Virus record (IMG/VR): IMGVR_UViG_2713896909_000009
Location: 32,673-96,672 of that record
Length of the DNA stretch: 64,000 nt
Reading direction: 5' to 3' (one strand)
Source of the DNA: a virus
Lineage: Duplodnaviria > Heunggongvirae > Uroviricota > Caudoviricetes
Each line of letters opens with the position of its first letter. The first letter of the stretch is position 1. Shown here one piece after another: positions 3,168 to 5,823 of this stretch. Made by a program: the position numbers and the translations under genes. The notes under the pieces are model-generated. The model was not told the origin of the DNA. It was given only the letters and a program-made list of their open reading frames with translations, and did not search any database.

Positions 3168-3869
3168 TTATTCTGATTCTTGCTCAAAAAACGCGCTAAT
3201 GAGAGGAAGCCAATCCTCTGACACTTCACGCGGTCGCGGTTTGCCGTGGAAGAAGATTATTCGGCAGTCTTTTGGTAATGTCCCATTCCCCCTGGAGTAG
3301 CGCGCACTTGCATATTTCGAACCAGGTCCCACAACATCGGCCTTGTAACTTACAAACCATCCCGGATACAGATCCTGAAATGCTGGTGTGTCATCGCCCA
3401 TAACCTTCCGTAAGAAGCCCTGATCACCCCAGCACTCAGTAGTGACACAACGAGAAATCCAACCTTCCGGATCTTGCCAGAATGAACTCCAGATATGCGC
3501 TTTTACACTATTTGGTATCCACAGTGCACCGCTACCACGATATTGTGGATGGAAAAAATCTCTAAGCATGGTGAAGCTGGTCGGTGGATTCTCAAGGATT
3601 GGGCGTATATCACCGGCAATAACCGTGTCCAAATCCAGATAGAACAGATCATCGGTTATATCCGGTCGGAACAACTCGATTTTCGCCCACCAGCCACGGC
3701 ACTTTTGCCACTGGTTGATCAATGGGACAACTTTGACGCCAGGTACATGTAAACGCTTCAGGTCTGTCAGGCAAATAATTTCATAGCCTTTTGGCAGTTG
3801 ATTAACCAGCCACTGCACATCGGAAGCGTTATAGTCACCACCAGAGCGAAGAACTAAAGCAATCTTCAT
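3168..3869 (-). CDS. putative GT-A-fold glycosyltransferase-like protein (DxD motif)
   Basis: Hydrophobic strand then acidic DxD ([12 protein letters not shown]) resembling the GT-A / GT32 sugar-binding region; 4-nt overlap with upstream phosphatase gene. Confidence 0.4.
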
Positions 3870-4558
3870 GCTGCACCATCACCTTTCACTTTCATCAATG
3901 TCAGGTTTCCGCAAAATACGGCACCAGTGTCGATATAATGCTGATTCCAGAATGCCTTCGGGCTTTTCACCGGAGTATGACCAAAGATAAAACGATCTGC
4001 GCCCGAAATTTCGCCACCAATATCATCCATCGAATCACTGATACGCTCGCGCGCCCAGACAACATTGAAAAGTGGCACCTCCTTACCGAATTGGTATTCA
4101 TTATCCGGATAGTCGGCATGGGCTATAACGATAGTTTCTCGCCCGGTGTTCAACTCAATGATATAGGGTAGACGTCTTACCAACTCCACCAGCGCCCTGG
4201 CTAATATTTCCTGATCAGTGTCCAGCATGAAGAACCATTGACCGCCATTCATTAGCCAGTTATTCACGTTGCCAGCAGGACTTAACGCATCAAGCATCAA
4301 CCGCTCATGGTTCCCCATGACTGACCTGAACCAGGGCATCTGCAATAGTTCCAGACATTCGACATTTTCAGTACCGCGATCGATAAGGTCGCCGACAGAT
4401 ATCAGTAAATCCTGCGCAGGGTCAAAATCCACACGATGGAGTTCGGACATCAGTCTGGTGTAGCAACCGTGCAGATCACCAACAACCCAGACATTCCTGT
4501 ATTTAGTACCGTCGATACGGTGATAAATTGTTGGTGCCATCATGTATTCTTCAGCCAT
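3866..4558 (-). CDS. Ser/Thr protein phosphatase, lambda PPase / PrpA family
   Basis: Metallophosphatase motifs GDLHG, GDLIDRG, GNHE and close resemblance to E. coli PrpA N-terminus; P1 ppp may be the equivalent. Confidence 0.85.
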
Positions 4559-5166
4559 TCTTTAAGAGTCATCTGCGGTATCCCCCCCATTTCCCCGCAC
4601 GAAACAACGTCAATCTGTTCACGCGCAGACTGGAATAACAAAGGCAGGTGACTTAGATTTTTTGGCGTGCCGCCGGAGTGAACGCGCGGTTCTTGCGTAG
4701 CGTCAACGCCCACCAGGGCAACATGTTTGAATCCGATATGGAAAGCTAGGTTCAGAGCGCCGTATGCACTATTGCCGCTGGCAATTTCATTCACATCTTC
4801 ACAAAGTCCGAAATGTGCGGACCAGCGCCACGCCCACCACTCGGGAGAGTTCGTATTTTTTGGCTCTGTGCCTCGCTCAGCCACTCGACGGAAGCACAGA
4901 ACACCGTCTCTGACTTCACGTTCTTTAACATCAGGTAGCGCCAGGCAATAACAAACACCGCGGCGACGGCGACCACGACCAACGCGCCGCATATTGTCTG
5001 GCGATGGATCAAGGGTGAAAAAATAAGAAGCGCGGTTAAGCCAGTCGATGGCCCCGTTGACCGCTATAATCGGCACTCCACGCGGCGCAACAAAGTTTGC
5101 GGCGCTTGGGCCACTGCCGACGATAATAACGCGATCACTGCCTCTAAATTTATTCTTGGGAAACAT
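4540..5166 (-). CDS. Rossmann-fold transferase-like protein (DUF115 / MptE-like or sialyltransferase-like), paralog 1
   Basis: IIVGSGPS ... IIAVNGA ... [25 protein letters not shown]; same motif order as downstream paralog. Confidence 0.5.
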
Positions 5167-5693
5167 TGAATTGCACTGCTCCTACTTGCATTCAAAATAT
5201 GTAAATCTGCATGTTTTTTGCGGGTATCCAGGAACTGCTGTTGCCATTTTGAAATAGACACCTGCGTTGGATTCCGTAGTGCTTGAGGGTGCGCACCATG
5301 CCAATGGAGGCCGTTTTGCAGAGAACAGTCATAACCGACTAATACAACTACTTCAGCCCCTGACTCTGCCGCCAGACTGATAGCCTGCGCGCCGCTATTT
5401 ACCCCTTCAGCTGGTCCACAATATCGCCTGTACTCCAACGAAAATGATTTCGCCGCCGCCAGGTTGGCTGTCACTTTGCGGAATCTCCCTTCCGGTATGA
5501 TGGATCCGTATTGCTTCCACCATGACAAATCACCTGCGTATAAGGCATAAATGTCATCGAACATCTGCCAGGAATTGTTGACCGCGATGATTGAACAGCC
5601 AGTTTTTTCTATAGCAGCACAGTCCTCACGAGTGAGTGACGGACCGCTACCGATACAAAAAACCGTCTTAGTCGCCCGGGGCGGTATGTTCAT
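5064..5693 (-). CDS. Rossmann-fold transferase-like protein (DUF115 / MptE-like), paralog 2
   Basis: FCIGSGPS ... IIAVNNS ... GVNSGAQAISLAAESGAEVVVLVGYD; start taken at internal ATG 5693 (MNIPPR), track start is 5726; 3-prime end overlaps paralog 1 by about 100 nt. Confidence 0.5.
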   Translation of the reverse strand: MNIPPRATKTVFCIGSGPSLTREDCAAIEKTGCSIIAVNNSWQMFDDIYALYAGDLSWWKQYGSIIPEGRFRKVTANLAAAKSFSLEYRRYCGPAEGVNSGAQAISLAAESGAEVVVLVGYDCSLQNGLHWHGAHPQALRNPTQVSISKWQQQFLDTRKKHADLHILNASRSSAIQCFPRINLEAVIALLSSAVAQAPQTLLRRVECRL

Positions 5694-5823
5694 TCTCAGC
5701 TGCAAATTCGGCCTCCAGGCGAGCATTCATTTCAGCGATTACCGGGTCCACTACAGCATCTGTTTCCTGTTCATTACGCGGCATGACCGATGCCAGCGAT
5801 TCATAATTAACCTTGGATGACAC
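5668..5823 (-). CDS. possible small ORF
   Basis: GGGAGA 6 nt upstream of a GTG at 5823; 51 codons, acidic; weak. Confidence 0.2.
   Translation of the reverse strand: MSSKVNYESLASVMPRNEQETDAVVDPVIAEMNARLEAEFAAENEHTAPGD

What the first reader, a model, noticed from the sequence alone, without database searches (positions are those of the whole stretch)
3168..5726. Four-gene operon: DxD glycosyltransferase-like protein, PrpA-like phosphatase and two tandem Rossmann-fold transferase paralogs
Four minus-strand genes overlap each other, suggesting translational coupling. Two encode paralogous proteins with the same motif order (GSGPS, IIAVN, GxNSxxGA ... VxLVGxD), reminiscent of DUF115/MptE-like or sialyltransferase-like enzymes. 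The others are a PPP-family metallophosphatase and a GT-A-like protein with a YLDLD motif. This could be a sugar-nucleotide-dependent modification system of unknown target (DNA, virion protein or host envelope).
Basis: partly seen in the sequence, partly recalled or inferred. Interest (0 to 1): 0.65.

Follow-up and report, generated by a model that had tools for sequence, protein, structure and literature searches.

The report
P1 pmgO-pmgP-pmgQ glycosyltransferase cassette
These are the long-known but uncharacterised phage P1 genes pmgO, pmgP, ppp and pmgQ: three of them form a portable sugar-transferase cassette found in many unrelated phages and some bacterial chromosomes, the phosphatase is an unrelated insertion, and what the cassette glycosylates is still unknown.

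Summary
Four overlapping minus-strand genes lie at 3168-5726, and the two "Rossmann" proteins are true distant paralogs.

The window is a P1-like phage, 96% identical to P1. The genes are pmgO, pmgP, ppp and pmgQ, annotated in 2004 as "putative morphogenetic". Published deletion and CRISPRi work shows they are dispensable for plaque formation.

- **PmgO and PmgP:** AlphaFold models (pLDDT 90 and 93) best match the Maf flagellin glycosyltransferase, archaeal MptE and the Campylobacter sialyltransferase Cst-I.
- **PmgQ:** its family profile matches GT8 enzymes (AgtA, glycogenin, GlyE) and keeps the DxD motif.
- **Ppp:** a lambda-type PPP phosphatase.

The "four-gene system" is not supported. O-P-Q recur together without ppp in lambdoid, HK97-like, lytic and jumbo phages and in chromosomal islands. 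They are found fused to one another (O+P, P+Q, Q+P+methyltransferase). Phage D6 has ppp without them.

I read the trio as a glycan-building cassette: two ulosonic-acid-type transferases, probably using CMP-Kdo, plus a GT8 hexosyltransferase. The acceptor is most likely a protein (virion or surface protein). LPS is the main rival. The acceptor is inferred, not shown.

Interest is moderate.

The parts
5064..5726 (-). pmgO (P7 hdmB): Maf/MptE/CstII-fold transferase. The conserved core is residues ~20-200. The true start may be the ATG at 5693 (Met12).
4540..5166 (-). pmgP (P7 hdmC): distant paralog of PmgO with a Trp-rich insertion ([11 protein letters not shown]). It is the most conserved and most widespread member of the cassette.
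3866..4558 (-). ppp: lambda-type PPP-family Ser/Thr(/Tyr) protein phosphatase. It is inserted between pmgP and pmgQ only in the P1 lineage. The probable start is the ATG at 4543.
   Evidence: PF00149 at 58 bits. PHROG 246, NinI-like. NCBIfam PrpA/PrpB models at 277/239 bits, below the equivalog cut-offs. The GDLHG, GDLIDRG and GNHE motifs are visible in the sequence. Absent from every non-P1 cassette. Present alone in phage D6.
3168..3869 (-). pmgQ (P7 hdmD): GT8-like (glycogenin/AgtA-like) GT-A glycosyltransferase with DxD = D79-L80-D81.
   Evidence: PHROG 1962, 'glycosyltransferase', E 2e-126. Family profile against PDB: AgtA 6mw5 E 2.5e-9, GlyE 5gvv 3.7e-5, glycogenin ~5e-5. Invariant D79, L80, D81, D149; near-invariant H208.
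5668..5868 (-). pmgN (P7 hdmA): small ORF that opens the transcription unit and overlaps pmgO. Found only in P1-like elements.
   Evidence: P1 and P7 annotation. tblastn finds it only in P1-like loci.
5867..5915 (-). Sigma-70 promoter-like site (GCGACA-17-TAAAAT, 5915-5887) with an adjacent C1 operator-like site (5867-5883). These correspond to PpmgN/Oppp (Op83) of P1.
   Evidence: and the P1 annotation. The window has 10 operator-like sites against 0.27 expected by chance.
3098..3168 (-). End of the unit. Two inverted C1 operator-like sites (3101-3117 and 3150-3166, = OpmgRb/OpmgRa) flank an 11-bp stem-loop followed by a U-run, which looks like a terminator.
   Evidence: RNA fold -26.9 kcal/mol, z -11.8. 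Operator matches. P1 annotation.

Best explanation
**What is there.** pmgO, pmgP and pmgQ are a portable three-enzyme glycosylation cassette. ppp is a lambda-type protein phosphatase gene that was inserted into the cassette in the P1 lineage and is merely co-transcribed with it.

**The enzymes.**
- PmgO and PmgP are minimal (~190 aa) catalytic domains of the Maf / CstII / WaaZ / MptE fold. I infer they work as a pair, because they are fused in one phage.
- I infer they transfer a CMP-activated 2-keto-3-deoxy acid sugar. In E. coli K-12 and the other diderm hosts the only generally available donor of that type is CMP-Kdo.
- PmgQ is a GT8-type retaining GT-A enzyme (DxD plus His). I infer it adds a hexose from a UDP-sugar.
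- In other phages the cassette gains further transferases and sugar O-methyltransferases, so the product is a short, sometimes methylated, oligosaccharide.

**Expression.** The enzymes are soluble and cytoplasmic. In P1 they are expressed only after C1 repression is lifted.

**Acceptor.** I think the most likely acceptor is protein: Ser/Thr of virion surface proteins in phages, and neighbouring Ig-like adhesins in chromosomal copies.

**Shown versus inferred.**
- Shown: gene identity, folds, paralogy, the co-occurrence and fusions of O/P/Q, the independence of ppp, and purifying selection.
- Inferred: glycosyltransferase activity rather than pyrophosphokinase activity, the donor sugars, and the acceptor.

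My probability that the cassette builds a glycan is about 0.75. My probability that the acceptor is protein is about 0.4. The confidence below is for the statement taken as a whole.
For: **Identity.** The window is 96% identical to P1 across pmgN-pmgO-pmgP-ppp-pmgQ.

**Folds.**
- PmgP and PmgO models have pLDDT 93.2 and 89.8.
- The PmgO profile aligns its GPS loop and its NSG...LxGYD motif to the same two motifs of CstII.

**PmgQ.**
- Profile against GT8 structures: AgtA E 2.5e-9, GlyE 3.7e-5, glycogenin ~5e-5. All three work on protein-linked glycans.
- The host's LPS GT8 enzymes score lower: WaaJ 16 bits and WaaO 10 bits, against 40 bits for AgtA.

**The module.**
- O-P-Q co-occur in L003, L005, L006, L104, L105, L110, L111, L122 (lytic coliphage IME392) and L123 (jumbo phage XacN1). 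P-Q or O-Q pairs occur in L007, L106, L109 and L118.
- Fusions: O+P (P0053), P+Q (P0301, P0369), Q+P (P0390), Q+P+methyltransferase (P0353), methyltransferase+P (P0384), and TylF-like methyltransferase+Q in XacN1.
- Accessory genes: a GT-A protein 'X', a GT4 enzyme and methyltransferases.

**Independence of ppp.**

**Position and context.**
- Directly after the HK97-type capsid gene in five unrelated prophages: L006, L007, L104, L117, L118.
- Present in strictly lytic phages.
- Next to Big_1/invasin-like adhesins in chromosomes, intact, with dN/dS 0.07-0.17.
- Followed by a 1,088-aa PKD-domain protein in XacN1.

**Other points.**
- No transmembrane segments.
- Precedent: Maf enzymes expressed in E. 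coli O-glycosylate Ser/Thr with Kdo taken from endogenous CMP-Kdo (PMC11339370).
- Every named host is diderm.
Against: - No biochemical or genetic phenotype exists. P1 deletions of these genes plaque normally and keep antirestriction (PMC9024508; PMC10695390).
- No glycosylated P1 virion protein has been reported.
- The window's PmgO and PmgP fall below Pfam's PF01973 threshold. PmgQ has no Pfam GT8 hit of its own.
- Chromosomal copies without phage genes show the cassette does not need a virion.
- Many copies sit beside lysis or terminase genes, or in DNA-metabolism regions, rather than beside capsid genes.
- The nearest sequence-level named relative of PmgP is the LPS enzyme WaaZ, although only weakly.
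- CMP-Kdo is a scarce, labile donor for decorating hundreds of capsid subunits.
Confidence: 0.45

Rival explanations
1. LPS or other envelope glycolipid remodelling. PmgP/PmgO act like WaaZ and add extra Kdo to the inner core. PmgQ acts like the GT8 core enzymes WaaJ/WaaO/LgtC. Together they alter or truncate the core that P1 uses as its receptor. This would limit superinfection or the loss of progeny on debris, and in chromosomal copies it would change the cell surface.
For: - WaaZ is itself a sub-threshold MptE-like protein and shares the LSGPxS / IIAVNG / GxDxT motifs with PmgP.
- There are weak WaaZ model hits: PmgP E 0.03 and P0053 E 2.9e-4. A precomputed faint WaaZ_KDO_III Pfam hit is recorded for P0053.
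- GT8 includes LPS core enzymes.
- All named hosts have LPS.
- Chromosomal copies are under purifying selection without any phage context.
- The positions beside lysis or terminase genes resemble moron sites.
Against: - The WaaZ similarity is far below the family cut-offs: 10-14 bits against 200.
- The PmgQ profile prefers the glycogenin/AgtA branch (26-40 bits) over WaaJ/WaaO (16/10 bits). LgtC is not among the PDB hits at E<=10.
- In P1 the unit is C1-repressed, so it is not a lysogenic-conversion locus.
- The cassette is present in strictly lytic and jumbo phages.
- In HK97-like prophages it is packed without gaps inside the head operon.
- LPS newly made late in infection cannot replace the LPS already in the outer membrane. 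This last point is an inference.
Confidence: 0.25
2. PmgO and PmgP are not glycosyltransferases. They are ATP-dependent pyrophosphokinases, like MptE or thiamin pyrophosphokinase, and activate a small molecule that PmgQ then uses or modifies.
Against: - Maf is the best structural match for both proteins, and sialyltransferases of two CAZy families also match.
- The proteins are fused to, and always accompanied by, glycosyltransferases and sugar-type O-methyltransferases.
- No pterin or thiamin genes lie nearby.
- Two paralogous kinases in one cassette would be hard to explain.
Confidence: 0.07
3. One reading: the four genes are one integrated modification system in which the Ppp phosphatase is a functional partner of the three transferases. 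The target could be phage DNA.
For: In P1-like elements ppp is translationally coupled on both sides. It has stayed in that position in relatives whose Ppp is only 58% identical to the window's (L096, L011-L013).
Against: - ppp is absent from every non-P1 copy of the cassette.
- It is present without the cassette in D6, among nin-region-like genes.
- It is never found fused to O, P or Q.
- P1 has no base-hypermodification pathway, and these folds are not those of known DNA glycosyltransferases. This rests on established knowledge, not on a test made here.
- Deletions do not change antirestriction (PMC9024508).
Confidence: 0.05

Closest known systems
Maf (motility-associated factor) flagellin nonulosonic-acid glycosyltransferases (PF01973 central domain, PDB 5mu5)
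   Different: Maf proteins are about 630 aa, with N- and C-terminal domains flanking the catalytic domain. PmgO and PmgP are the bare ~190-aa domain and come as a paralogous pair. Sequence identity is only 15-16%. No flagellin context. The window's proteins are below Pfam's threshold.
Campylobacter GT42 sialyltransferases Cst-I / CstII
   Different: Profile E-values are only 0.4-1. E. coli K-12 makes no CMP-Neu5Ac (established knowledge). The lid and membrane-association regions are missing. Equivalence of the catalytic His was not tested.
WaaZ, the KdoIII transferase of the E. coli LPS inner core (TIGR04437 / NF007333)
   Same: Same superfamily. WaaZ is also a sub-threshold MptE-like protein. 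It shares the SGP(S/T)S, IIAVNG and GxD(A/L)T motifs. It uses CMP-Kdo, the donor I propose.
   Different: Scores are 10-20 bits against cut-offs of 200-473. WaaZ is 283 aa, single-copy, and sits in the waa cluster.
GT8 retaining glycosyltransferases of the glycogenin / AgtA / GlyE branch
   Same: The PmgQ family profile matches them over about 170 residues, including the DxD motif. They are cytoplasmic and metal-dependent, and they build protein-linked glycans.
   Different: PmgQ itself has no Pfam PF01501 hit. It is shorter, at 200-235 aa. Acceptor and donor are unknown.
Phage-encoded virion glycosylation in mycobacteriophages (Che8-type glycosyltransferases)
   Same: Phage-borne glycosyltransferases that are thought or shown to decorate capsid and tail proteins (mentioned in PMC11256854).
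   Different: Different enzyme families, and Gram-positive-type hosts. No virion glycan has been shown for P1 or for any phage that carries this cassette.
Bacteriophage lambda protein phosphatase (NinI / ORF221) and E. coli PrpA/PrpB
   Same: Ppp has the PPP motifs and is 64% identical to lambda PP according to the P1 annotation. PHROG 246.
   Different: In P1 the gene sits inside the transferase unit rather than in a nin region. It is below the PrpA/PrpB equivalog cut-offs.

Membership tests
PF01973 MptE-like / DUF115 (Maf_flag10) superfamily - PmgO, PmgP | Pfam HMM score at or above the gathering threshold (34.6 bits) | tested here: not met
   PmgP scores 20.4 bits and PmgO 23.0 bits. Homologs do pass: the P0053 fusion at 44.6 bits and P0340 at 44.1 bits. 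Several homologs also carry a precomputed PF01973 assignment.
PF01973 MptE-like / DUF115 (Maf_flag10) superfamily - PmgO, PmgP | Rossmann-like fold shared by the Maf central domain, MptE and sialyltransferases | tested here: met
GT42 sialyltransferases (CstII/Cst-I) | Significant sequence membership, and a catalytic His base with Tyr residues that stabilise the phosphate | tested here: inconclusive
   Profile E-values are 0.4-1, covering only two nucleotide-binding motifs. PmgO has invariant H141/H143/H146 and PmgP has invariant H173 downstream of the GxD strand. No structural superposition of active sites was possible.
GT42 sialyltransferases (CstII/Cst-I) | Use of CMP-Neu5Ac as donor | not testable with these tools
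   This needs enzymology. From established knowledge, K-12 hosts lack CMP-Neu5Ac, which makes CMP-Kdo the more plausible donor.
WaaZ KdoIII transferase (TIGR04437, NF007333) | Equivalog HMM score above the cut-off (200 / 473 bits) | tested here: not met
   PmgP scores 13.6 bits, P0053 scores 20.3 bits and PmgO has no hit. Family profiles against WaaZ give 10-12 bits. hhalign gives E 5e-4 and 2e-3 at low probability.
MptE / thiamin pyrophosphokinase (ATP-dependent pyrophosphoryl transfer) | Pyrophosphokinase active site and a pterin or thiamin pathway context | tested here: inconclusive
CAZy GT8 (PF01501) - PmgQ | Pfam GT8 HMM hit | tested here: not met
   The window protein has no hit. Only 6 of 43 family members give weak hits, the best at E 0.026.
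CAZy GT8 (PF01501) - PmgQ | Homology to solved GT8 enzymes across the catalytic domain | tested here: met
   Family profile: AgtA 6mw5 at E 2.5e-9 (profile positions 31-198), GlyE 5gvv at 3.7e-5, glycogenin at ~5e-5, and 3tzt at 0.03.
CAZy GT8 (PF01501) - PmgQ | DxD metal/nucleotide-sugar motif plus a C-terminal His ligand | tested here: inconclusive
   D79-L-D81 is invariant and aligns to the DAD motif of GT8. H208 is nearly invariant, but in the HMM alignment it lies two residues away from glycogenin's His.
PPP-family metallophosphatase (lambda PP / PrpA-like) - Ppp | PF00149 above threshold, and the GDxHG, GDxxDRG and GNHE motifs | tested here: met
   58 bits against a cut-off of 21.5. GDLHG, GDLIDRG and GNHE are visible in the translation. 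PrpA/PrpB equivalog cut-offs are not reached: 277 against 326 bits and 239 against 332 bits.
   ppp accompanies O/P/Q only in P1-like elements. The cassette lacks ppp in more than 12 other loci. D6 has ppp alone.
Three-gene PmgO-PmgP-PmgQ cassette (defined here) | Co-occurrence, gene fusions and purifying selection across unrelated genomes | tested here: met
   Co-occurrence. Fusions O+P, P+Q, Q+P and Q+P+methyltransferase. dN/dS of 0.06-0.17.

The most novel reading that the evidence does not exclude
The cassette makes a natural protein-linked glycan that contains Kdo: Ser/Thr-O-Kdo, extended by a hexose and sometimes methylated. The glycan sits on phage virion proteins and on Ig-like bacterial adhesins. 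Two minimal Maf-like domains working as a heterodimer build it from the host's own CMP-Kdo pool.

Ser/Thr-O-Kdo has so far been seen only as an artefact of Maf enzymes expressed in E. coli. A widespread native system, present in phage P1 itself, would be a new class of protein glycosylation. It would also be a new way for phages of Gram-negative bacteria to decorate their particles.
Probability: 0.15. Interest if true: 0.8.

Novelty: new variant of a known kind. Interest (0 to 1): 0.45.

Why it matters
P1 is one of the most used phages in genetics, yet this block of its genome has carried the placeholder name "putative morphogenetic function" since 2004.

This analysis recasts the block as a three-enzyme glycosylation cassette. 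The cassette is shared by lambdoid, HK97-like, lytic and jumbo phages and has been domesticated in some enterobacterial chromosomes. That gives these genes a concrete hypothesis testable in P1.

- **If the acceptor is a virion protein,** this would extend phage-particle glycosylation from mycobacteriophages to phages of Gram-negative bacteria. That would bear on immune recognition of therapeutic phages and on phage-derived delivery vehicles.
- **If the acceptor is LPS,** it would be a new kind of phage-driven change to the LPS core receptor.

Either way, the minimal ~190-aa Maf-like domains could be useful glyco-engineering parts.

The practical limit is that the genes are dispensable in the laboratory, and nothing here shows the product.

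Tried and rejected
1. **First hhalign run.** The PmgO-versus-PmgP comparison was dominated by the P0053 fusion row in A1. I redid it without that row.
2. **Fusion alignment.** I tried a combined alignment headed by the P0053 fusion so that both domains could be folded in one job. MAFFT stacked the PmgO homologs onto the PmgP half (A3), so I folded PmgP and PmgO separately. No model of PmgQ was made; I relied on profile evidence instead.
3. **Viral-contig scan.** The scan with the PmgP alignment returned only near-identical P1 loci. It added nothing on diversity, so I used the genome collection, contig look-ups and the annotated phage set.
4. **Structure libraries.** The afdb50 library was not available. 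The viral structure library gave only uncharacterised MptE-like phage proteins.
5. **Single-sequence PDB searches.** These were uninformative for PmgO and PmgP.
6. **Frameshift idea.** A -1 frameshift could fuse PmgO to PmgP at an A_AAT_TTA heptamer in the 103-nt overlap (5151-5145). The heptamer is absent from Salmonella, Pantoea and other relatives, and the nearest hairpin is badly spaced. I rejected this idea.
7. **DNA glycosylation.** Rejected for lack of any supporting context.
8. **Literature.** Searches for pmgO/P/Q, MptE-like or DUF115 in phages, and WaaZ with phage found no functional study.
9. **Terminator scan.** The consensus scan did not list the pmgQ-pmgR hairpin. Direct folding shows it clearly.
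Full report
**1. What the window is**

The region 3000-6000 is 95.4-96.0% identical over its full length to phage P1, P7 and about 17 other P1-like phages and phage-plasmids. In the annotated P1 genome (AF234172) the four ORFs are pmgQ, ppp, pmgP and pmgO. They are preceded by the small gene pmgN and followed by pmgR, pmgS and pap. P7 names them hdmD, ppp, hdmC, hdmB and hdmA, "head morphogenesis", without recorded evidence. The genes are therefore not new. "pmg" stands for "putative morphogenetic function".

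**2. Check of the observation**

The ORFs lie at the stated coordinates: 3168-3869, 3866-4558, 4540-5166 and 5064-5726, all on the minus strand. They overlap by 4, 19 and 103 nt. A ppp start at ATG 4543 would give an ATGA overlap with pmgP, and it is called that way in Salmonella relatives.

All four genes are under purifying selection relative to P1, with dN/dS 0.06-0.13. None has a hydrophobic segment that would span a membrane.

The pmgP start codon lies inside the Cys-Phe codons of PmgO's conserved C-terminal motif. The same arrangement is seen in distant carriers of the gene pair. The overlap is therefore old and real.

Paralogy of PmgO and PmgP is barely visible by BLASTP (E 0.004). It is clear by profile-profile comparison once the fusion protein is removed from the alignment: hhalign probability 97.8%, E 6.8e-13, 163 columns.

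The transcription unit is larger than four genes.
- A sigma-70-like promoter lies at 5915-5887, and a C1 operator-like site at 5867-5883 precedes pmgN. These match PpmgN/Oppp of P1.
- Downstream of pmgQ, two inverted operator-like sites enclose a stem-loop followed by a U-run (3098-3168; -26.9 kcal/mol; z -11.8).
- The unit is therefore repressed in the lysogen and expressed in lytic growth.

**3. What each protein is**

*Ppp.* It is a PPP-family metallophosphatase (PF00149, 58 bits) of the lambda NinI type. It is close to E. coli PrpA/PrpB but below their equivalog cut-offs.

*PmgO and PmgP.*
- They give only sub-threshold PF01973 (MptE-like/DUF115) hits.
- PHROG places PmgO in a family labelled alpha-2,3-sialyltransferase.
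- With alignments of diverse homologs (A1, A2), AlphaFold gives confident models: pLDDT 89.8 and 93.2.
- The PmgO profile aligns its G-P-S loop and its NSG...LxGYD motif with the corresponding motifs of CstII, at non-significant E-values.
- E. coli WaaZ, the KdoIII transferase, belongs to the same superfamily and shares motifs with PmgP. The relation is weak: 10-20 bits, hhalign E 5e-4 to 2e-3.

*PmgQ.*
- It has no Pfam hit.
- A profile of 43 family members matches solved GT8 enzymes: AgtA at E 2.5e-9, GlyE at 3.7e-5, glycogenin at about 5e-5.
- The invariant D79-L-D81 lies on their DxD motif.
- The profile scores E. coli's LPS-core GT8 enzymes lower: WaaJ 16 bits and WaaO 10 bits.

**4. The unit that evolution keeps is three genes, not four**

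*Co-occurrence.* Homologs of PmgO, PmgP and PmgQ lie side by side, without ppp, in:
- an SU10-like podophage contig (L003);
- a Citrobacter rodentium lambdoid prophage (L005 = phage phiNP);
- HK97-like prophages of Pseudomonas (L006), Zhongshania (L104) and Brevundimonas (L110);
- a Commensalibacter prophage (L105);
- a Bacteroidota phage (L111);
- the lytic coliphages IME392 and EP_H11 (L122);
- the jumbo phage XacN1 (L123).

P-Q or O-Q pairs occur in several more loci.

*Fusions.* The genes are found fused in several independent ways:
- PmgO+PmgP (P0053);
- PmgP+PmgQ (P0301, P0369);
- PmgQ+PmgP (P0390);
- PmgQ+PmgP+methyltransferase (P0353);
- methyltransferase+PmgP (P0384);
- a TylF-like sugar O-methyltransferase fused to PmgQ in XacN1.

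*Optional extra members.* These are a ~190-aa GT-A-like protein, a GT4 enzyme and stand-alone methyltransferases.

*ppp.* It accompanies the trio only in P1-like elements. In the P1 relative D6 it sits alone among nin-region-like genes.

*Family size.* The PmgP family has 588 representative clusters at E<=1e-3 in 1.84 billion proteins.

**5. Where the cassette sits**

- In five unrelated HK97-like prophages it follows the major capsid gene directly and precedes the head-tail connector genes, tightly packed.
- In lambdoid and other prophages it lies between the lysis genes and the terminase.
- In lytic and jumbo phages it lies near DNA-metabolism genes.

Two chromosomal settings lack phage structural genes.
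- In five Pseudescherichia-like genomes, O, P and Q are scattered among an inverse-autotransporter invasin and other Big_1 proteins. All are intact, with dN/dS 0.07-0.17.
- In Buttiauxella and Serratia, a small holin-PmgQ-PmgP-lysozyme(-spanin) islet lies among ordinary chromosomal genes.

Every host that is named is diderm.

**6. What is known experimentally**

Single deletions of P1 pmg/upf genes other than pmgA, B, C, G and R had no plaquing or antirestriction defect. Among the pmg proteins, only PmgC and PmgG were found in the virion proteome (PMC9024508). CRISPRi knock-down scores pmgO, pmgP, ppp and pmgQ as nonessential (PMC10695390). I found no paper on their function.

One useful precedent exists. 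Maf enzymes, which carry the PF01973 domain, O-glycosylate Ser/Thr with Kdo when expressed in E. coli, drawing on the cell's CMP-Kdo (PMC11339370).

**7. Most likely mechanism**

The co-occurrence, the fusions, and the company of further glycosyltransferases and sugar-type methyltransferases argue that the trio builds a short glycan (my estimate about 0.75).

The fold of PmgO and PmgP is shared by enzymes that transfer CMP-activated keto-deoxy acid sugars. The cassette carries no sugar-nucleotide synthesis genes and is seen only in diderm hosts. CMP-Kdo is therefore the most plausible donor. This is an inference.

For the acceptor I favour protein (about 0.4), for these reasons:
- the best structural relative, Maf, and the best GT8 relatives (AgtA, GlyE, glycogenin) all act on proteins or protein-linked glycans;
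- the cassette sits in head operons;
- it is present in lytic phages;
- large Ig-like proteins neighbour it in chromosomes and in XacN1.

The main rival is LPS-core remodelling (about 0.25). The WaaZ link, P1's LPS receptor and the domesticated chromosomal copies support it. C1 repression, the lytic-phage carriers and the weaker similarity to the Waa GT8 enzymes weaken it.

A pyrophosphokinase role for PmgO and PmgP cannot be excluded from fold alone (about 0.07).

**8. Novelty and verdict**

The genes are known, and databases already label two of them as glycosyltransferase-like. What this analysis adds:
- the phosphatase is separate from the transferases;
- the O-P-Q cassette is defined, with its fusions and accessory genes;
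- the cassette spreads across very different phages and into chromosomes;
- there is now a specific donor and acceptor hypothesis.

This is a new variant of a known kind (phage glycosyltransferase cassettes). Its product is untested. Interest is moderate.

Noticed in passing
L109 5726-8604 (Buttiauxella MAG) and L004 6712-9102 (Serratia plymuthica): A small chromosomal islet, holin - PmgQ - PmgP - lysozyme (- Rz-like spanin), has no other phage genes around it. Its flanks are tauABCD, LysR/LuxR regulators and fimbrial genes. It looks like a domesticated lysis cassette, as used for protein release, with two transferases embedded in it.
   Followed up: partly
L098-L102 (Pseudescherichia and related MAGs), about 280-13400 in each locus: PmgO, PmgP and PmgQ homologs lie on different strands among an inverse-autotransporter invasin (IAT_beta plus 7 Big_1 domains) and three further Big_1/RCC1-repeat proteins. 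All three genes are intact in five species, with dN/dS 0.07-0.17. The adhesins could be their substrates.
   Followed up: partly
L119/L120 7001-7633 (Candidatus Pantoea floridensis): A lone PmgQ homolog (48% identical) sits between lpd (pyruvate dehydrogenase E3) and acnB. No PmgO/PmgP and no phage genes lie nearby.
   Followed up: no
L123 6630-11220 (Xanthomonas jumbo phage XacN1, ORF373-372): ORF373 is a TylF-like O-methyltransferase fused to a PmgQ domain. A 1,088-aa protein with a PKD (Ig-like) domain follows it directly and is a candidate acceptor.
   Followed up: no
window 3098-3168: The two C1 operator-like sites between pmgQ and pmgR are inverted repeats of each other. Together with an inner 11-bp stem they fold into one long hairpin (-26.9 kcal/mol, z -11.8) followed by a U-run. 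Operator pair and terminator therefore occupy the same sequence.
   Followed up: partly
window 5145-5151 (minus strand), inside the pmgO/pmgP overlap: The heptamer A_AAT_TTA is in the pmgO frame, so a -1 slip would read into pmgP and mimic the natural O+P fusion P0053. It is not conserved in Salmonella or Pantoea relatives, so it is probably chance.
   Followed up: yes
window 5668-5868 (pmgN): In the literature, CRISPRi knock-down of pmgN scored as essential although its deletion is viable (PMC10695390). This could be a polar or artefactual effect at the head of this transcription unit.
   Followed up: no
window 5890-6468, 6471-6716 and 1016-1531: Neighbouring 'pmg' genes also have recognisable folds that are not morphogenetic. 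PmgM is a VRR-NUC nuclease-like protein, PmgL is a DksA-like zinc finger, and Pap is a HAD phosphatase of the polynucleotide kinase-phosphatase type.
   Followed up: no
P0407, P0414, P0440 (about 400 aa, metagenomic): These are PmgP domains fused to an unassigned ~200-aa C-terminal domain. That domain carries an SSGSSG...LGFDxVVLCGxPxD motif reminiscent of the same fold, so it may be a third paralog type.
   Followed up: partly
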